Part shown: positions 303-57,351 of the stretch, piece after piece
Layout of the letters: each line of letters starts with the position of its first letter
How positions within the stretch are numbered: position 1 is the first letter of the stretch
Sequence record: NC_048203.1
Length of the DNA stretch: 64,000 bases
Reading direction: 5' to 3' (one strand)
DNA from: Escherichia phage vB_Eco_mar003J3
Made by a program: the position numbers and the translations under genes
Notes under the pieces: generated by a model
What the model was told of the DNA's origin: nothing
Databases searched by the model: none
The model's input: the letters and a program-made list of their open reading frames with translations, nothing else

Positions 303-866
303 TCAGCTAAAGGTGCAAATATTTTTAGGGTCTCCCCCAAGAGCCTTATATCTCTTTCGGAGTCCATTATCAGATAGTCCAAGTTCTCTTGAAGCTATAG
401 CCCAGGAGAAGTTTCGTACCCAATACTCTATATCTTCTTTTGTAATATCTCTATTCTTAATCCTAGCCGAAGCAGTACACTTTAAGCAGGCTTTTGAGGA
501 TTTATGCTTAGTATCACCACAAATAGGACAAACATCCGTTCTTCTACTAATATTGTTATCAGAACATGTTTTTATTACGTGCTCTTCTTTACTAAGAACT
601 TGTAGGTTGCTTAGTTCAAAATTTGCCGGATTTCTATCTTTATGGTCTACTTCTTTAGAGGAATAAAGATCTTCTAAATCTTTAAATACTCTGCATAATA
701 GTCTAGATATTAAAAGAGTATGCTCAACACCATTTTTACTTAGCTTAACACATGGATAACCTTTATTGTTAAGATAAGTAGCTATTTCTCTGTTAACATG
801 CAATGAGTAAACTTTGCCTGTTTCAGAAATTTTATACATAGGAAATTCAGGTATTGTCTTAAACAT
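303..866 (-). CDS. HNH homing endonuclease
   Basis: 187 aa; HNH-like core VDHKDRNPANFELSNLQVL plus C-terminal Cys cluster CPICG...CLKC. Confidence 0.7.
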   Translation of the reverse strand: MFKTIPEFPMYKISETGKVYSLHVNREIATYLNNKGYPCVKLSKNGVEHTLLISRLLCRVFKDLEDLYSSKEVDHKDRNPANFELSNLQVLSKEEHVIKTCSDNNISRRTDVCPICGDTKHKSSKACLKCTASARIKNRDITKEDIEYWVRNFSWAIASRELGLSDNGLRKRYKALGGDPKNICTFS

Positions 867-2833: not shown

Positions 2834-3343
2834 TTAATTATTTCGGGCATATTCCCCATGAAGTTTCTCTCTCAGTTGAATTAGAGCTTCATTTGCTGCT
2901 TCAGGAGTACTGTGCAGCCCTGCGGAGTATGACTTACCTTTAAACATTATTCTACCCTGCCACTGACCAGATGCTTTGTGGTAGGATACTCCCTTAAATC
3001 CGCTAGTATTCCTAGAAGATTTACTAGCATTATGAGTATTAGTGGTACTATCCGCTGCTCTTAAATTTAAAGGATGTATGTTTAACTTATTGCAGTCTTT
3101 ATGATCAATCATTTCCGGCCTATACCCATAATATAGTATAAATACTATGATATGAGCTAAGTAATCTTGGTGATCAACGTTAACTCTGATATACCCAGAG
3201 CTTTTGTGCAAAGATCCCGCAGGTTTATTGGCAAACTTAGTATTAAATATCTTCTCCTCTCTGGAGTTTCCGGAGAGCGGATTCCACACCAGTACACCAT
3301 CTTCTAAACGGAATCTATAAAGTATAGACTCATAGTCTAGCAT
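2834..3343 (-). CDS. HNH homing endonuclease
   Basis: 169 aa; IDHKDCNKLNIHPLNLRAA HNH core; C-terminal SGFKGVSYHK...W.GRI AP2-like region. Confidence 0.75.
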   Translation of the reverse strand: MLDYESILYRFRLEDGVLVWNPLSGNSREEKIFNTKFANKPAGSLHKSSGYIRVNVDHQDYLAHIIVFILYYGYRPEMIDHKDCNKLNIHPLNLRAADSTTNTHNASKSSRNTSGFKGVSYHKASGQWQGRIMFKGKSYSAGLHSTPEAANEALIQLREKLHGEYARNN

Positions 3344-7687: not shown

Positions 7688-8170
7688 CTAACCAAAGTTA
7701 GTAAATTCTTTATGTAAGGATTCTCTTAATATCTTAGAGGCCTCGAAAGCCTCTTCCGCAGTTTTAAACCCTCTTTTACTGTAATTTTTTCCTTCATGTC
7801 TTACTTGGTATCTCCAGGAAGAGCCTTCCCAACTTACTCCTTTGTACCCAGAAGTATTATTGCATTGTTGGTTTCTATTCGCATTGTTTTGCGATCTAGA
7901 GGCGTCCCTTAGATTATTTTTCCTATTATTTCTAGGATTAGTATCCTTATGATCTACTTCTTCAGGCCTATATCCATAGTACATAATAAACAATAAGACA
8001 TGCAGTTGATAGGTGTCGCCCTGAAATCCCACATCTGGATGTGATTTCTTATTATTGGCACAACACTCTTTCAAACCTTTCTTTGTTTTCCTATATAGTA
8101 TCCCATTATCAGGATCAGCTACAAAATATTTTTCAAGTATTTCTTTAGTAGGGTATTCTTTCCTTTTCAT
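7688..8170 (-). CDS. HNH homing endonuclease
   Basis: 160 aa; EEVDHKDTNPRNNRKNNLR core; SGYKGVSW...WRYQV AP2-like C-terminus. Confidence 0.75.
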   Translation of the reverse strand: MKRKEYPTKEILEKYFVADPDNGILYRKTKKGLKECCANNKKSHPDVGFQGDTYQLHVLLFIMYYGYRPEEVDHKDTNPRNNRKNNLRDASRSQNNANRNQQCNNTSGYKGVSWEGSSWRYQVRHEGKNYSKRGFKTAEEAFEASKILRESLHKEFTNFG

Positions 8171-51396: not shown

Positions 51397-51625
51397 TTTT
51401 GCAGATCCTAATATGATAGGAGTAGATGTAGATCAATCTAATTTTTACAAGATTGATATTAAATACGTTGAACCTGAGAAAATAGTATTGAGGGTTGATG
51501 TATCTGGTGTAGTAGAGCAGTGGGATGAAGAGGGATTTATCGCACTTTGCACTGAATCTCAGGATCCTATGCTTAAAGCTATGCTAGCAGTGTATAACTT
51601 AGGTATTATTGCAGGTAGTAGATAA
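51359..51625 (+). CDS. hypothetical protein (88 aa)
   Basis: Overlaps dut 3' end in another frame. Confidence 0.35.
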   Translation: MEKAALEAQEVSNFADPNMIGVDVDQSNFYKIDIKYVEPEKIVLRVDVSGVVEQWDEEGFIALCTESQDPMLKAMLAVYNLGIIAGSR

Positions 51626-51632
51626 TAATAAA

Positions 51633-51667
51633 CCCCAGTGGATTATCCACTGGGGTTTTCTTTTACT
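51633..51667. terminator. bidirectional terminator between convergent modules
   Basis: CCCCAGTGG-attat-CCACTGGGG flanked by T-runs on both strands. Confidence 0.65.
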
Positions 51668-52931
51668 TAGAACTTCTTAGTGCATTAAGTTCTCTCTGCA
51701 TATATTCTAACTGTTCCTTATAGTCCACTATTTGTTTTTGTAGTTCCTGTACAACTGTGATAATATCAGCCATAACAGCCTTATCATTTACGTTTAGAAT
51801 CTCAAATTCTTTTCCATTATCATCTACAGACTGACCCCCACTAAAAACATAAATAGGGTCAATAGCTTCCATCTGCTGTGCTAAATACCCACGCTGGGGA
51901 ACTACATTTCCTTTATATGTGAATTCTACAATCCCTATTTGTTCAATTCGTTCCCACGCACCCGATTTCGGCAATTTAAAATTGTCTTTGATACGAACAT
52001 CAGAACCTTGAATAGCAACTTGCCCTAAAGGAGTATGCATTGTGCTGTCCGCTCGCATAGAATACCAGAGATTTATATTATCAGATCTTGTTAATTGCCA
52101 TGTATATTGTGCGACTCCATCTACAGTATAAATGTAGTTGGCTACCGTACAGTCAGAGTTTTCAAGATGGGATAACTTGTTATGTCTAACACCGTCTAAC
52201 GACTCTTGGCTTTTTAGCTTTACAATTGTAGCAGTGTATGCGTCAGAATTCCCAAAAAGTGCTCGAGCTACAAGGTTTGATTGTGTTTCTAATCCATTCT
52301 GTGGTAGTAAAGTCCCTGGTATATAAAGGTGTCCATTAGAATTAAAACGCATTACTGCTGTATTTGTTCCATGTGCTTCAACCCTTGCTTCGGTAATTCC
52401 ATTTCCAATTGCTGCTTGTGCGTAGAAATCTGCACTAAAGTTATCGGTAGCTCCTACTTTATACTTTGAACTAACTCTGCCACCACTTACTACAGTATTC
52501 ACTGGGGGTAATACTGCATCGGCATTGTTAACACTCCAAGAAGTATTTGCCGCAACAAAACCACCAGATGCACGAATAACCCAAACACCAACAAAACTAC
52601 GTGGCAATATGTTGTTTTTTATTGAATATTTTCCATAGACTCCATCACTGGCCCCAGCGTTAATTGTTAATACTGCGTTGTTTCTTACTCTGCTAAAAGT
52701 ACCATCATTAGGTAAAAATGTATCTTCAACTGCAGAATTATATCCGAAAGCTCCGCTTACAGCTTTAGGTGCTGGTTGCCAAACTTTTCCGCTTGTATCG
52801 TTTGCTGCCGTACCATAAATATTAGGTGCTGCCGCTTCATAGACACGCCCATCTTCGGAAGAATTACCACCATCACCACGCCCAAAAAGACTTAACGTAG
52901 AATTTGGTTGCGCACCGTTCCGGTCAGGCAC
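51663..52931 (-). CDS. L-shaped tail fibre protein, distal part with C-terminal intramolecular chaperone domain
   Basis: 422 aa; in frame with 53013-53888 across one TAG; GTG start without convincing SD; C-terminus parallels LtfA. Confidence 0.6.
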   Translation of the reverse strand: MPDRNGAQPNSTLSLFGRGDGGNSSEDGRVYEAAAPNIYGTAANDTSGKVWQPAPKAVSGAFGYNSAVEDTFLPNDGTFSRVRNNAVLTINAGASDGVYGKYSIKNNILPRSFVGVWVIRASGGFVAANTSWSVNNADAVLPPVNTVVSGGRVSSKYKVGATDNFSADFYAQAAIGNGITEARVEAHGTNTAVMRFNSNGHLYIPGTLLPQNGLETQSNLVARALFGNSDAYTATIVKLKSQESLDGVRHNKLSHLENSDCTVANYIYTVDGVAQYTWQLTRSDNINLWYSMRADSTMHTPLGQVAIQGSDVRIKDNFKLPKSGAWERIEQIGIVEFTYKGNVVPQRGYLAQQMEAIDPIYVFSGGQSVDDNGKEFEILNVNDKAVMADIITVVQELQKQIVDYKEQLEYMQRELNALRSSK

Positions 52932-53012
52932 ACGGAATGTAGTAGATCCGTTACCCGTTGAATACCTACCTCGTTTTTCTGGGTCAGCAAGCCATTCAGC
53001 ATCGGAAATAGG

Positions 53013-53888
53013 CTATAACATTTGAGCGTATGCCCACAATTCAGGCCAGTCTGCGCGATTTAGCAATTGACCATCTGATAAGACTTCATATGGTTGAATA
53101 TACGCACGACTATCACGAAGATGGAAATCACCAACGCCATAGTTCATTACACCATTCATTGTCGGGCCGACAGTGCCTGTATTTACAAGGTTTTGCACCC
53201 AACGTTTCGTCGCTGCATCATAATCGTTAACTGGATCACCAGACAGTGGGGTAGGACCTTGGGGCCTAACAACAGACCATAAAGCTTCCCTATTGGTTAC
53301 TCCTGTACCTCCCTGTTCAACAGATAATGATATCCACTTGTTTTCTACGTCACTATACGCACCCCAAGCACCTGAATTCTGAATAGTTAACCTTGAGCTT
53401 TTATCTCCACTATACACTCGAGTTTCTGTTCCAAATTCCTGGCTAAATCTATCAAGTTCTAGTGCAGTTTTAGCCCCATCTACAGTAGAAGAACCAGTAC
53501 CACCCTGAGCAATAGTAATAGCTTTGGTAAGTGAATTTAGTTCTGTAATATCGTTATTAGCACCCTTACCTGCTTTAGTATCTAGGCCAGTATTAATACT
53601 CTCAATGGATGTGTTAATACCACCCAAGGCAGAATTAATACCACCAATAGACTCGTTAATGCTACTAACAGACTCATTAGTATTGTTAATAGAAGTATCA
53701 ATTCCACTTAGACGAGTGTTTAATTCTTGCTGATCTATATTATACTTAGAGATTTGTAAGTATTTAGAAGTTAATACAACAGCACCAGCCTCTCCATCAA
53801 CAGAGAAAACACCAGCAACAGCAGCATCTCTGTTAACTACAATATATGGCGCCATTGCGCCAGATTTAGGCATTAAATTACGTGACAT
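53013..53888 (-). CDS. L-shaped tail fibre protein, N-terminal part (ends at in-frame amber)
   Basis: 291 aa; SD AGGAAAT; GGTG repeats; stops at TAG inside a tail-collar-like motif. Confidence 0.6.
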   Translation of the reverse strand: MSRNLMPKSGAMAPYIVVNRDAAVAGVFSVDGEAGAVVLTSKYLQISKYNIDQQELNTRLSGIDTSINNTNESVSSINESIGGINSALGGINTSIESINTGLDTKAGKGANNDITELNSLTKAITIAQGGTGSSTVDGAKTALELDRFSQEFGTETRVYSGDKSSRLTIQNSGAWGAYSDVENKWISLSVEQGGTGVTNREALWSVVRPQGPTPLSGDPVNDYDAATKRWVQNLVNTGTVGPTMNGVMNYGVGDFHLRDSRAYIQPYEVLSDGQLLNRADWPELWAYAQML

Positions 53889-54286
53889 AAGATTTCCTAA
53901 TAAGATTAGAATTACTCCCTAATCTCTTGTAAACTTTTAGAGTAAAGTGCGAGTCCCTTCGCACAATAGGTTATTATGGAGTATTTTTTATTTTACTCAC
54001 TTCTGTTTCAAGTGTGGACACACAGTTAACTAAAGCTAGAGCTTGATTTACTTCCGTAAGAAGTTTCTTAAGAGTAGTAATCCCTCCCTTTAAGCTATCA
54101 ATTTCTTTTGCTTACTGGTCATTTTCATCCCTTAGCTGAAGAAGAGCTTCATGGTGTAGTACTCTGTCTTTTCATCGAACATGATGTTGTCCGCATATTG
54201 CCGAGTTTGATCGGACTGTATACTCACAACATCCGCGCGGATGTAAAAACCTGCAACAGCATGGTTTAGGAGGAATCCAAATGGTG

Positions 54287-56929
54287 TTACTTTTGTAACA
54301 TCAGATTAACTAGTTCTTTAAGCTCTGCGACTTCTGACTTCAGCGTTTCGATTTCCGTATTCTTTCTCTGTAACTCCTGAACGACGGTTACTACATCCGC
54401 CATGACCGCGCGGTCATTTACGTTCATTATCTCAAATTCATTACCGTCATCACCAAGAGCGGTCCCCCCAAAGTAAGTATAGGTATCGTCGATATCAGCC
54501 ATTTGCTGTGCAAGAAAACCGCGCTGACGGATTTTACTTCCGTTATAGTAAAATTCCATGACACCTATTTTAGCAATCCTTTCCGCTGCGCCATCCCTTG
54601 CAGGAGCAAAGCTATTCTTAATGCGGATATCAGATCCTTGGATGGCGACGCGCCCTTCAGGGGTGTACATCCCGTTATCTGCTCGGATCGAAAAATATTT
54701 AATATCAAGACCTGTTACGTCCATCCTTGTTACAAACTGTTGTTGTGAACCTCCTGGAGATACAAGATAGTGATATATTTTTGTTGTGTTATTTTCGACT
54801 TGGCTCAGATAGTTGACGTTATCCGCGTCCGTCGACGATCTATCCGCTTTTTTTATGACCGCCGGGCCGAAAGCGCCATCACGGCCCGAAAATACGCGCC
54901 CCCGGGCTTCACTCTCACATGACATATTGCCATCAGAGTCTATCGCCAAAATAGCCTGTTTAAGTACGCCACCGATTCTGGATACTGCTGATATGCGAGT
55001 CACCACCACTGACGACCCTTTCGTCGCAGCCACGGACATCGACGCATCGGCGATATTAACGCCGTTTTCGGATAGTCGGCTAGTCAGCCACCCGCCCGCC
55101 GTAGCCCCCGCAGGTAGAACAGTCTCCTTATGTACGACCTGCAACGTGTCCTGGATATTAGGGTTAGTCACCTTTTCCAGAACCCAGCCACGCGTCGCGG
55201 CATCCATCTCGCTAACTGGATCTGCTGCTAATGGCGTGGCACCTACTGGGCGGACGTTAAGCCAAGCAGCGGCGCGGTCTGCGAGATCGCTCAAGTTATT
55301 TGCTTTCTTGAGTACATCTGAAGAAGCTGGAACTTCTAGGGCAGTTCTAGCCTCTTCTACTGTAGAAGCTCCGGTACCACCTTTATTTATCGGGATAATA
55401 TCTTCTACAGAGGCTTCTCCAAGTCCTAAAGCTGATCTTGCAGTCTCAATAGTAGAAGCTCCGGTACCACCTTTATTTATTGGGATAATATCTTCTACAG
55501 AGGCTTCTCCAAGTCCTAAAGCTGATCTTGCAGTCTCAATAGTAGAAGCACCAGTACCTCCTTTAGCTACAGGTAAAATTCCCTCAAAACTATCTGTAGA
55601 AATGGCAATATTAACAGAACCATCTGCAGAAGGTCCAATCCCATTAACCATAGTAATATACGGAATTTGTTCCTTAATAGCACCAGCGTTTTCCTCGCCT
55701 TTTGCAGCAGCACGGAATGCTTGACCCTGCATCATATCAGGTAGACGGAAAGTAGTAGTACCATTACCAGTGGAGAAATAGAGAGTTGCACCAGCTTGCC
55801 ATTGTTCCTCAGTAACCGAAGGGATTAAGCCAGCTTCAATAGCTTCCCAAGTATCTGGGTAGTCTACACGTAGAACCTCACGACCATCAGCAGGAAGAAC
55901 ACCAGGGTACCCAACGCCTGAATCCTTATCATAAGGGAACCAAGTAACTTCACCTAACCACAGAGAAGGATTACCACCAGGAAGAGTAATCTGTATGTTA
56001 CCTACATCATCTGCACGAACGTTATTAATAGAAACTATCTTTTGCTCTGCCTCTACTAACTCTAATTCTGGAGTCTCAGCAGTTCCAGCTACTTTGTACC
56101 ACCCATATTTTGAGTCAGTTTGGTTCCATACTAGGATCTTTTCACCTAGTGCGCGACTACTAACGTCAGTATCTGCTTCTTCTTTGGTCTTGTAGACTTT
56201 GATAAAGCCAGATATATCTTCTTTATCCAGTTTGCTATCTACAATCTGAGTAGCACGATCTGCCTCAGCTTTAGCACGATCTGCCTCAGTAGTAGCATCG
56301 ATAGCTTTATCGCCAGCTTCAGTAGCAGAACCAGCAGCATTAGTTTCAGAAATCTTAGCGTTTAGTTCTGATTGCTTAGCAGCAGCAGCATGCTCACCAG
56401 CAGTTGTTGCAGCAGCATCGGCTCCTTCTTTAGCAGTTTCTGCACCAGTTTGTGCAGTTTCAGCGGCTACTTGAGCTTGTTGAGCAGCAGTTTTAGCTTG
56501 TTCGGCTAGTTCTCTACTTCTTTCAGCATTTTGAGCAGCTAACTGAGCCGCATCTTTGTGTGTGCCGGCTTCTGTAGCAGATGCAGCGGATTCTTCAGCG
56601 CTAGCCTTAGATAATCCAGCTTGTCTCTCAGATTCCGTAGCAGAAGTAGCTGCTTGAGTAGCAGAAGCTTCAGAAGAATCAGCGTAAATAGCAGCTCTAT
56701 TTTCTGAGTCTCTAGCGTTAGTTTCAGATAATTTTGCTGCAATTTCAGAATCTTTTGCAGCAGCAGCTGAAGCTGCGGATGATTCCACAGCCGCAGTCAG
56801 TTCACCCGCAGTAATAGAACTGATAGAGTTACCTAAAACTACTGTATATTTAGGATACTTACTAGCAGTAGTTGTAGTATCATCTATGTTCAGAATCTGC
56901 TGTACAATAATTTTAGTTTTAAGTGCCAT
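54287..56929 (-). CDS. ltfA: L-shaped tail fibre protein LtfA-like
   Basis: 880 aa; Ala-rich coiled N-terminus, GGTGASTIETARSALGLG repeats, tail-collar-like STGNGTTTFRLPD, C-terminal chaperone-like domain. Confidence 0.75.
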   Translation of the reverse strand: MALKTKIIVQQILNIDDTTTTASKYPKYTVVLGNSISSITAGELTAAVESSAASAAAAKDSEIAAKLSETNARDSENRAAIYADSSEASATQAATSATESERQAGLSKASAEESAASATEAGTHKDAAQLAAQNAERSRELAEQAKTAAQQAQVAAETAQTGAETAKEGADAAATTAGEHAAAAKQSELNAKISETNAAGSATEAGDKAIDATTEADRAKAEADRATQIVDSKLDKEDISGFIKVYKTKEEADTDVSSRALGEKILVWNQTDSKYGWYKVAGTAETPELELVEAEQKIVSINNVRADDVGNIQITLPGGNPSLWLGEVTWFPYDKDSGVGYPGVLPADGREVLRVDYPDTWEAIEAGLIPSVTEEQWQAGATLYFSTGNGTTTFRLPDMMQGQAFRAAAKGEENAGAIKEQIPYITMVNGIGPSADGSVNIAISTDSFEGILPVAKGGTGASTIETARSALGLGEASVEDIIPINKGGTGASTIETARSALGLGEASVEDIIPINKGGTGASTVEEARTALEVPASSDVLKKANNLSDLADRAAAWLNVRPVGATPLAADPVSEMDAATRGWVLEKVTNPNIQDTLQVVHKETVLPAGATAGGWLTSRLSENGVNIADASMSVAATKGSSVVVTRISAVSRIGGVLKQAILAIDSDGNMSCESEARGRVFSGRDGAFGPAVIKKADRSSTDADNVNYLSQVENNTTKIYHYLVSPGGSQQQFVTRMDVTGLDIKYFSIRADNGMYTPEGRVAIQGSDIRIKNSFAPARDGAAERIAKIGVMEFYYNGSKIRQRGFLAQQMADIDDTYTYFGGTALGDDGNEFEIMNVNDRAVMADVVTVVQELQRKNTEIETLKSEVAELKELVNLMLQK
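55362..55541. repeat. 90-bp tandem duplication (2 copies, 1 mismatch) inside ltfA
   Basis: 55362-55451 and 55452-55541 identical except one C/T; encodes 30-aa repeat; degenerate third copy follows. Confidence 0.8.
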
Positions 56930-57351
56930 TATTGAGTTACTCCATCGCTGATGTATACTTTACCTTCCATAATACGGAAAGAACTGACTTCAGAGCCAAT
57001 TACATCACGAGTCATTAGGATATCATAATAACCAGCAAAACGTTGTCTTGGGTTATACTTATCACGTTCTTTAGATGCTTTTTCACCAATATTAGTAACG
57101 TCTGCAACGGAAAGACTAATTGCAGCAGCACCTTGAGCAGCATCAATAACACGAGTTTTAAAGTTAGCTAGAACCTCGGCGTTCTCATCTAAACTAGACT
57201 TAATAGTTCCTCGGAGTGAATATCCGGTTAAGTTAACAGGAACTTCTGTTGGTGGATATACACTGTCATCAACATCCATAAACTGCATGATAAGACCATA
57301 AGGTACTTTCTCATCAACAACAATATCAATAACTCGGTTTTCTGTACTCAT
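56929..57351 (-). CDS. tail collar / small tail protein (T5 p132-like by size and position)
   Basis: 140 aa; lies between fibre and pb4-like gene. Confidence 0.45.

What the first reader, a model, noticed from the sequence alone, without database searches (positions are those of the whole stretch)
51663..53888. Second L-shaped tail fibre gene split by a single in-frame TAG inside the tail-collar motif
The 291-aa and 422-aa ORFs are in the same frame, separated only by TAG at 53013-53015 plus 27 sense codons. Translating through gives ...ADWPELWAYAQML*PISDAEWLADPEKRGRYSTGNGSTTFRVPD, which aligns residue-for-residue with LtfA ...VDYPDTWEAIEAGLIPSVTEEQWQAGATLYFSTGNGTTTFRLPD; the stop sits where LtfA has Leu. 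The downstream ORF has only a GTG and no convincing SD. This looks like one roughly 740-aa fibre gene interrupted by a nonsense codon: an amber mutant, a recent pseudogenisation, a sequencing error, or suppressed readthrough. None of the tRNAs I could fold in this window has a CUA anticodon.
Basis: seen in the sequence. Interest (0 to 1): 0.65.

Follow-up and report, generated by a model that had tools for sequence, protein, structure and literature searches.

The report
Amber-truncated LtfB tail fibre gene
The second side-fibre gene (ltfB) of the T5-like coliphage vB_Eco_mar003J3 carries a real, very recent single-base nonsense mutation (Ser292 TCG to TAG) that removes its receptor-binding half; this is an ordinary loss-of-function event of a kind already documented for T5-like phages grown on laboratory E. 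coli that lack O-antigen.

Summary
On the minus strand, 51663-53888 is one 741-codon frame broken only by TAG at 53013-53015.

The window is Escherichia phage vB_Eco_mar003J3 (Epseptimavirus), isolated and plaque-purified on rough, suppressor-free E. coli MG1655. The gene is the orthologue of ltfB, the branch fibre of the DT57C/DT571/2-type branched lateral tail fibre.

- **Ancestral state:** every intact relative has Ser (TCG, TCA or TCC) at codon 292. A metagenome scaffold that is 99.9% identical differs from this ltfB at that single base only.
- **Not an error:** five later, independently assembled sequencing runs of the same phage reproduce the TAG.
- **No suppressor:** the phage's complete cluster of 26 tRNAs has no CUA anticodon.
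- **No recoding:** no other gene in the window is interrupted by TAG.
- **No restart:** the downstream GTG has no Shine-Dalgarno sequence.
- **Consequence:** the stop lies just upstream of the part of LtfB that confers host specificity in DT571/2, and upstream of the C-terminal folding chaperone. The 291-aa product should be non-functional.

Published work shows that such fibre mutants are viable, frequent and possibly favoured on rough K-12 hosts. The finding is real but ordinary. Its value is to correct the annotation and the host-range interpretation.

The parts
51663..53888 (-). ltfB, the branch fibre of the branched lateral (L-shaped) tail fibre: 741 codons plus stop, interrupted by one amber codon
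   Evidence: Single frame with one internal stop. Same length as the intact genes in vB_EcoS-26175II and YZU-L1. 50% overall identity to DT571/2 LtfB, and 84-96% in most of residues 1-300. PHROG 6921 'tail fiber protein' matches end to end.
53013..53015 (-). Amber codon TAG at codon 292 (Ser292amber). The change is C to A on the coding strand at 53014, which is G to T on the + strand.
   Evidence: Codon 292 is TCG in 26175II, in the YOKO23 metagenome scaffold, in SRR13856729 and in SRR22878007. It is TCA in YZU-L1 and TCC in DT571/2. It is TAG in Logan assemblies of runs ERR10359653, 656, 658, 908 and 911.
53016..53888 (-). Translated 5' part: 291 aa, holding the conserved N-terminal LtfA-docking and shaft region. 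This is the only product expected in a sup0 host.
   Evidence: ATG-started ORF. Residues 1-50 are 92% identical to DT571/2 LtfB. According to PMC4728585, the N-terminal 45 aa of DT571/2 LtfB resemble the phiEco32 gp15 branch-attachment region.
51663..53012 (-). Untranslated 3' part: 449 sense codons plus the stop. It holds the variable receptor-recognition region and the C-terminal chaperone. The mechanical 422-aa GTG ORF (51663-52931) lies inside it.
   Evidence: The frame stays open for 449 codons. It shows zero differences from the YOKO23 orthologue, and only synonymous changes plus one A480V change against 26175II. No Shine-Dalgarno sequence precedes the GTG.
52923..53093 (-). Collar-like motif (residues 266-322), shared with LtfA. 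The stop falls inside it.
   Evidence: BLASTP match to LtfA residues 342-398 at 36% identity. Pfam Collar PF07484 matches below threshold, 17.3 bits against 24.
51855..52004 (-). Peptidase_S74 intramolecular chaperone domain (residues 629-678 of the full-length protein), downstream of the stop
   Evidence: Pfam PF13884, 31-32 bits against a cut-off of 22.
54287..56929 (-). ltfA (880 aa), intact. This is the fibre that attaches to the tail and carries LtfB.
   Evidence: ORF. 72% identity to DT571/2 LtfA over residues 1-600. Detected in mar003J3 virions by mass spectrometry as MAR003J3_00081.
56929..57351 (-). ltfC (p132-like, 140 aa), the fibre attachment and assembly protein
   Evidence: ORF. 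The orthologue is annotated 'L-shaped tail fiber protein p132' in 26175II and carries Pfam LtfC in L008.
51630..51658 (.). Perfect 13-bp-stem palindrome, read as a bidirectional terminator between ltfB and the convergent 88-aa gene
   Evidence: Terminator scan on both strands. Several Logan contigs break exactly here.

Best explanation
The window belongs to Escherichia phage vB_Eco_mar003J3. Its ltfB gene carries a genuine, evolutionarily very recent nonsense mutation: Ser292 TCG to TAG, one C-to-A change.

**Expected effect (inferred).** Translation in the sup0 isolation host stops after residue 291. The product keeps the conserved N-terminal LtfA-docking and shaft part. It lacks the variable receptor-recognition region and the C-terminal Peptidase_S74 intramolecular chaperone that such fibres need to trimerise. 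The phage is therefore functionally LtfB-null and relies on LtfA plus its main receptor-binding protein.

**Why it persists (inferred from published work).** The mutation is tolerated, and may be favoured, because lateral tail fibres are dispensable on rough, O-antigen-less K-12 hosts such as MG1655, on which the phage was enriched, plaque-purified and propagated.

**Shown here:** the identity of the gene, the ancestral codon, the reality and stability of the TAG, and the absence of a suppressor tRNA or of recoding.

**Inferred:** misfolding or loss of function of the 291-aa fragment, and whether the mutation arose in the environment or during isolation.
For: 1. **Source.** The 291-aa, 422-aa and 880-aa products are exact matches to VCU43802, VCU43801 and VCU43803 of vB_Eco_mar003J3. 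That phage was isolated on MG1655 with three rounds of plaque purification (PMC6563131).
2. **Orthologues are intact.** They have 741 codons and Ser at position 292.
3. **One-base difference.** The metagenome scaffold YOKO23-1 scaffold_85 is 99.91% identical over 10.1 kb. Its ltfB differs from the window only at 53014.
4. **Purifying selection on both sides of the stop.** Against 26175II, the differing codons are 5 synonymous and 0 non-synonymous upstream, and 9 synonymous and 1 non-synonymous downstream. There are no further stops or frameshifts. The inactivation is therefore recent.
5. **TAG reproduced.** Logan assemblies of five other runs show it, all 100% identical to the window.
6. **No CUA tRNA.** None in the window, none in this phage's own upstream tRNA cluster (26 tRNAs in L022 and L024, which are 100% identical to the window where they overlap), and none among the 31 tRNAs of 26175II.
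7. **No recoding.** Stop usage is TAA 52, TGA 12, TAG 3. No other TAG-interrupted long frame exists in the window.
8. **Position of the stop.** It corresponds to residue 278 of DT571/2 LtfB. In the DT571/2-ABF fusion, residues 288-767 carry LtfB's host specificity. Peptidase_S74 lies at residues 629-678.
9. **Published phenotype (PMC4728585).** An ltfB opal mutant grows normally on rough laboratory strains. [quoted passage not shown]
10. **Proteomics.** Virion mass spectrometry of mar003J3 detected LtfA but listed neither LtfB fragment.
Against: - No protein-level or phenotypic data exist for this specific allele.
- The proteomic list is short (about ten proteins), so the absence of LtfB peptides is weak evidence.
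- In DT571/2, loss of LtfB removed all visible lateral fibres. In mar003J3, LtfA was still detected in virions. The 291-aa fragment could therefore retain a stabilising role.
- Low-level near-cognate readthrough of UAG cannot be excluded by sequence. The phage encodes tRNA-Gln(CUG) and tRNA-Gln(UUG).
- I could not inspect raw reads, so minority alleles are unknown.
- The link between the ERR10359xxx runs and the mock-virome project PRJEB56639 is inferred, not verified.
- All TAG-bearing runs appear to derive from one laboratory stock lineage. They show stability of the allele, not independent origin.
Confidence: 0.87

Rival explanations
1. Sequencing or assembly error: the true codon is TCG, and the deposited genome carries a miscalled base.
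For: It is a single-base difference from the nearest relatives. [quoted passage not shown]
Against: Logan assemblies of runs ERR10359653, 656, 658, 908 and 911 were made independently of the deposited genome. All carry TAG, with 100% identity to the window over 3.1-12.4 kb. The site is not in a homopolymer or a repeat.
Confidence: 0.02
2. Functional readthrough: the amber codon is suppressed by a host or phage suppressor tRNA, or by efficient near-cognate decoding with the phage's own tRNA-Gln. Useful amounts of full-length LtfB are then still made, perhaps as a way of dosing the branch fibre.
For: The downstream 449 codons are perfectly intact. The phage encodes tRNA-Gln(CUG) and tRNA-Gln(UUG). 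TAG is a rare stop in this genome, 3 of 67.
Against: - No CUA-anticodon tRNA is present in the complete tRNA cluster of this phage or of its relatives.
- MG1655 has no amber suppressor (established knowledge).
- The intactness downstream is fully explained by recency: there is zero divergence from the YOKO23 allele apart from the stop itself.
- All relatives have a plain Ser codon here, so there is no conserved readthrough signal.
- A trimeric fibre needs three full-length chains, so readthrough at the percent level yields very little fibre (inference).
Confidence: 0.05
3. Two-piece fibre: the 422-aa C-terminal ORF is independently initiated at GTG 52931. It functions either alone or in complex with the 291-aa fragment.
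For: GenBank and RefSeq annotate both ORFs as 'tail fiber protein'. A GTG start exists in frame. The 422-aa ORF contains the chaperone domain.
Against: - No Shine-Dalgarno sequence lies upstream of the GTG, and there is no other in-frame start in the 27-codon gap.
- In relatives that GTG is simply an internal Val codon of a continuous gene.
- The fragment lacks the N-terminal region through which LtfB is thought to attach to LtfA.
- The split is one mutation old, so there has been no time to evolve a start signal.
Confidence: 0.03
4. Genome-wide TAG reassignment (TAG read as Gln), as in some recoded phages.
For: A database gene caller translated this very TAG as Gln on two short contigs, giving a 741-aa 'protein' with Q292 (P0005).
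Against: The contig carrying P0005 is 100% identical to the window and has TAG, so the Q is an artefact of the gene-calling model. Only one TAG in 64 kb interrupts long open frames. Other genes terminate at TAG. No suppressor tRNA is present.
Confidence: 0.01

Closest known systems
LtfB of phages DT57C and DT571/2 (Golomidova et al. 2016, PMC4728585; Ayala et al. 2023, PMC10713586)
   Same: - Same gene order, ltfC-ltfA-ltfB, upstream of dut and the flap endonuclease gene.
- 50% overall identity, and 84-96% across most of the N-terminal 300 residues, including the AQMLSPISDA segment that holds the mutated Ser.
- C-terminal Peptidase_S74 chaperone.
   Different: The window's copy is truncated by an amber codon at residue 292. 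The C-terminal receptor-recognition region is only 18-44% identical, so the O-antigen target is probably different and is unknown.
Engineered ltfB Q45opal and ltfA S23am mutants, and spontaneous LTF-less mutants, of DT571/2 (PMC4728585)
   Same: These are nonsense or other loss-of-function mutations in lateral fibre genes of a T5-like phage. They are viable on rough K-12 hosts, arise frequently and may be favoured there.
   Different: The mutation here is spontaneous and unreported. It lies later in the gene (codon 292, not 45) and leaves the docking and shaft region translatable. Its phenotype has not been measured.
Intact ltfB alleles of vB_EcoS-26175I-V, Citrobacter phage YZU-L1 and the metagenome scaffold YOKO23-1 scaffold_85
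   Same: 99.3%, about 97% and 99.96% nucleotide identity respectively across the gene. Same length and same frame.
   Different: They have Ser (TCG or TCA) at codon 292. The 26175 phages instead carry a frameshift in ltfA, at an A7 tract that has become A8.
T5 L-shaped tail fibre pb1 (Ltf)
   Same: A lateral fibre with a C-terminal self-cleaving chaperone that binds O-antigen and is dispensable on rough hosts (as summarised in PMC4728585).
   Different: T5 has a single ltf gene. LtfB has no T5 counterpart and attaches through LtfA.

Membership tests
LtfB (branch fibre of the DT57C/DT571/2-type lateral tail fibre) | Gene lies immediately downstream of ltfA in the order ltfC-ltfA-ltfB, on the same strand | tested here: met
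   Window, minus strand: 56929-57351 (ltfC), 54287-56929 (ltfA), 51663-53888 (ltfB). DT571/2 has the same order.
LtfB (branch fibre of the DT57C/DT571/2-type lateral tail fibre) | Conserved N-terminal segment (about 45 aa) proposed to dock on LtfA | tested here: met
   Residues 1-50 are 92% identical to DT571/2 LtfB. The docking role itself comes from PMC4728585 and was not tested here.
LtfB (branch fibre of the DT57C/DT571/2-type lateral tail fibre) | C-terminal Peptidase_S74 (PF13884) self-cleaving intramolecular chaperone | tested here: met
   31-32 bits against a cut-off of 22, at residues 629-678 of the full-length frame. The domain is encoded downstream of the stop.
LtfB (branch fibre of the DT57C/DT571/2-type lateral tail fibre) | Uninterrupted reading frame that gives a full-length fibre protein | tested here: not met
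   TAG at codon 292. The locus is an ltfB orthologue by descent, but a nonsense allele or pseudogene.
LtfB (branch fibre of the DT57C/DT571/2-type lateral tail fibre) | Physical attachment to LtfA and recognition of a specific O-antigen | not testable with these tools
   Needs electron microscopy, pull-down and host-range assays.
Phage tail collar domain (Pfam PF07484) | Score at or above Pfam's gathering threshold | tested here: not met
   17.3 bits (LtfB segment) and 19.5 bits (LtfA segment) against a cut-off of 24. Only profile positions 38-54 match. The motif is collar-like, not a certified member.
Amber-suppressed gene (phage- or host-encoded suppressor tRNA) | A tRNA with a CUA anticodon available during infection | tested here: not met
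   None among the 26 tRNAs of this phage's full cluster. None among the 31 tRNAs of 26175II. The sup0 status of MG1655 is established knowledge, not tested here.
TAG-recoded phage genome (TAG read as Gln) | Many genes with in-frame TAG, TAG not used as a terminator, and a suppressor tRNA | tested here: not met
   One interrupted frame in 64 kb. TAG terminates two other ORFs. No CUA tRNA.

The most novel reading that the evidence does not exclude
The amber allele may not be a dead gene but a selected, partly functional state. In this reading, the 291-aa N-terminal fragment still docks on LtfA and stabilises it, because LtfA is found in virions whereas a DT571/2 ltfB-null mutant loses all lateral fibres. 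Rare near-cognate readthrough of UAG, helped by the phage's own tRNA-Gln genes, would equip a small fraction of virions with full-length LtfB. That would be a bet-hedging mixture of host ranges produced from one genotype.
Probability: 0.04. Interest if true: 0.6.

Novelty: new member of a known kind. Interest (0 to 1): 0.15.

Why it matters
**Annotation.** GenBank and RefSeq list two separate 'tail fiber protein' CDSs (VCU43801/2, YP_009824365/6). These are really the halves of one ltfB nonsense allele.

[quoted passage not shown] The host range measured for mar003J3 is therefore probably that of an LtfB-null phage.

**Method.** This is another example of isolation on rough K-12 yielding or preserving fibre-defective T5-like phages. 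That biases host-range inference from genomes.

**Practical use.** Plating on O-antigen-bearing strains and selecting revertants at codon 292 could identify LtfB's receptor.

**Database caution.** One protein entry shows Gln at this position only because a gene caller read TAG as Gln.

Tried and rejected
1. **Apparent pseudo-revertant.** Cluster member P0005 (741 aa) reads AQMLQPISDA, which suggested TAG to CAG. I retrieved its contig by way of the partial LtfA product. The DNA is 100% identical to the window and still has TAG. The Q is an artefact of gene calling with a TAG=Gln model. Rejected.

2. I worked round this through neighbouring window proteins.

3. **Contig breaks as a sign of mixed populations.** Several Logan contigs break at 51643-51658, and I suspected mixed ltfB alleles. 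The breaks are explained by a perfect 13-bp palindrome, read as a terminator. The breaks at 55390-55421 are explained by the tandem repeat in ltfA.

4. **Deposited record not available.** I tried to fetch LR027389 to see its annotation. It is not in the phage collection.

5. **One assembly not seen at codon 292.** I tried to display the ltfB region of the 86-kb contig ERR2849792_610, possibly from the original sequencing run. The tool folded it into 'similar places not shown'. Its codon 292 was therefore not read directly.

6. **Host-range table.** The second part of the first supplementary file, which I read, did not contain Table S6.

7. **Structure prediction.** Not run. A monomer model of a trimeric fibre would not bear on the question.
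Full report
**Observation.** On the minus strand, a 291-codon ATG ORF (53013-53888) and a 422-codon GTG ORF (51663-52931) share one frame. They are separated by TAG at 53013-53015 and 27 sense codons. Translating 51663-53888 gives 741 codons with a single internal stop. No Shine-Dalgarno-like sequence precedes the GTG, and there is no other in-frame start codon in the gap. It is the only TAG in the 64-kb window flanked by open frames of at least 100 codons on both sides.

**Identity of the window.** The three fibre-locus products are exact matches to proteins of Escherichia phage vB_Eco_mar003J3, whose genome is 115,471 bp. The 291-aa product is VCU43802 (YP_009824366), the 422-aa product is VCU43801 (YP_009824365) and the 880-aa product is VCU43803.
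- The phage is an Epseptimavirus. Its nearest deposited relatives are vB_EcoS-26175I-V and Citrobacter phage YZU-L1.
- It was described by Michniewski et al. 2019 (PMC6563131). It was isolated from coastal seawater on E. coli MG1655, in some cases after overnight enrichment, followed by three rounds of plaque purification.
[quoted passage not shown] It does not mention a stop codon; 'amber' occurs zero times in the text.

**Identity of the gene.** The gene order on the minus strand is ltfC (56929-57351), ltfA (54287-56929, 880 aa, intact), then the interrupted gene. This matches DT571/2, where the genes are named ltfC, ltfA and ltfB.
- The intact orthologue from 26175II is 50% identical to DT571/2 LtfB over its whole length.
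- Identity is 92% for residues 1-50 and 96% for residues 251-300. It falls to 18-44% beyond residue 350.
- PHROG 6921 ('tail fiber protein') covers the intact protein at profile positions 1-733 of 738. The two window ORFs hit positions 1-273 and 302-733 of the same profile.
- Pfam Peptidase_S74, the self-cleaving intramolecular chaperone of fibres and endosialidases, lies at residues 629-678, downstream of the stop.
It matches Pfam Collar only below threshold, at 17.3 and 19.5 bits against a cut-off of 24.

**The mutation.** Codon 292 is TCG in 26175II, in the YOKO23 metagenome scaffold, and in the assemblies of SRR13856729 and SRR22878007. It is TCA in YZU-L1 and TCC in DT571/2. The ancestral residue is therefore Ser, not Leu, and the window differs by one C-to-A change on the coding strand at 53014.
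- The most telling comparison is with ENA scaffold YOKO23-1_SAMN32383957 scaffold_85 (113 kb). It has nine mismatches and no gaps against the window over 10.1 kb. Within ltfB, the only difference is the nonsense change.
- Against 26175II, the differing codons are 5 synonymous and 0 non-synonymous upstream of the stop, and 9 synonymous and 1 non-synonymous downstream.
- Both halves were therefore under purifying selection until very recently. Nothing has decayed since the stop arose.

**Not an error.** Logan assemblies are built from raw reads independently of the deposited genome. Those of runs ERR10359653, 656, 658, 908 and 911 contain this region at 100% identity to the window, with TAG. These runs probably belong to the mock-virome benchmark of Cook et al. 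2024 (PMC10926689, project PRJEB56639), which lists vB_Eco_mar003J3 among its 15 phages. The link between runs and project is my inference. If it holds, the allele was stable through re-propagation years after isolation.

**No suppression or recoding.** The window holds six tRNAs, none with a CUA anticodon.
- I extended the phage's own genome upstream using contigs ERR2849792_610 and ERR10359908_273. Both are 100% identical to the window where they overlap, and identical to each other beyond it.
- The complete cluster has 26 tRNAs and none has a CUA anticodon.
- In 26175II all 31 annotated tRNAs lie in the homologous cluster, and none is CUA.
- Stop usage among 67 non-overlapping ORFs is TAA 52, TGA 12 and TAG 3.
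- MG1655 carries no amber suppressor (established knowledge).
- A database protein (P0005) with Gln at position 292 looked like a TAG-to-CAG revertant. Its contig has TAG, so the Gln comes from a gene-calling model that reads TAG as Gln.

**Mechanism and consequence.** Golomidova et al. 2016 (PMC4728585) showed that in DT57C and DT571/2, LtfA attaches to the tail and LtfB attaches through LtfA. Both carry receptor-recognition regions for different O-antigens.
- The DT571/2-ABF fusion joins LtfA residues 1-663 to LtfB residues 288-767 and retains LtfB's specificity.
- The window's stop corresponds to DT571/2 LtfB residue 278. It therefore cuts off the whole specificity-bearing part and the chaperone.
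- I infer that the 291-aa product cannot form a functional trimeric fibre. This rests on the general requirement for the C-terminal chaperone in this fibre class and was not tested here.
- In DT571/2, an ltfB Q45opal mutant grew normally on rough laboratory strains and lost the LtfB-dependent O-antigen host.
[quoted passage not shown] - A phage enriched and purified on MG1655 is exactly where such an allele is expected.
- Virion mass spectrometry of mar003J3 listed LtfA (MAR003J3_00081) but neither neighbouring fragment. This is consistent but weak evidence, because the list is short.

**What remains open.** I cannot say whether the mutation arose in the sea or during enrichment and purification. 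Three further points are also unresolved: whether the allele is neutral or advantageous on MG1655, whether the N-terminal fragment still stabilises LtfA, and how much basal readthrough occurs. None of these can be settled from sequence. The experiments are listed under the next steps.

**Verdict.** This is a real, recent amber mutation in a known gene family, in a published phage, and it fits a documented pattern. It is of low general interest. It is useful for correcting the annotation (one ltfB pseudogene or nonsense allele rather than two 'tail fiber protein' genes) and for reading that phage's host-range data.

Noticed in passing
window 54842-54848 (ltfA, minus strand); L001:3446-3453; L012: ltfA contains an A7 tract. 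In all vB_EcoS-26175 phages, and in the Logan assembly of SRR22878007, the tract is A8. This frameshifts ltfA into pieces of 696 and 145 aa. So the closest relatives have a broken ltfA and an intact ltfB, the mirror image of this phage. Phage 26175V lysed only laboratory strains and no clinical isolate (PMC6834657), as expected for a phage without lateral fibres. Homopolymer sequencing error was not excluded.
   Followed up: partly
L005:426-499 (26175II), L023:3452-3525 (YOKO23 scaffold); homologous place in window about 7688-8170: Relatives carry a tRNA with a UCA anticodon, called tRNA-SeC(tca) and resembling an opal suppressor. mar003J3 lacks it. A 160-aa HNH_3 endonuclease ORF (window 7688-8170, ending TAG TAA) sits at that place instead. 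mar003J3 also has 26 tRNAs against 29-31 in its relatives; the Trp, Phe and both Gly tRNAs are missing.
   Followed up: no
window 55362-55565 (ltfA): A tandem repeat of about 90 bp encodes three copies of the 30-aa unit SALGLGEASVEDIIPINKGGTGASTIETAR (the third diverged) in LtfA. Every short-read Logan contig ends here, at 55390-55421. DT571/2 LtfA has a different 19-aa tandem motif at the equivalent place, and its copy number changed in a fibre-fusion mutant.
   Followed up: no
window 51630-51658: A perfect palindrome with a 13-bp stem and 3-nt loop lies between the convergent ltfB and 88-aa (DUF7369) genes, with T-runs on both strands. It is probably a bidirectional terminator. Several assemblies break here. 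The loop holds one of the three differences from the YOKO23 scaffold within the ltf region 51600-55421 (51644).
   Followed up: partly
L020 (ERR10359653_516), L021 (ERR10359911_240); protein P0005: On short contigs, the public gene calls read the TAG as Gln. This produces a 741-aa protein with Q292 that does not exist in the DNA. It is a trap for anyone inferring revertants or recoding from protein databases.
   Followed up: yes
window 303-866, 2834-3343, 7688-8170: Several HNH_3 or NUMOD4 homing-endonuclease-like ORFs are interspersed in the tRNA region. They are present or absent variably among near-identical relatives. In 26175II and in the SRR13856729 phage, an extra 169-aa HNH ORF lies between the D13- and D14-like genes. 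The window has none there.
   Followed up: no
window 53889-54286: A 398-nt non-coding gap separates ltfA and ltfB. In DT571/2 the gap is 39 nt. It contains weak promoter-like matches at 54018-53983 that are not above shuffle expectation. Its function, if any, is unknown.
   Followed up: no
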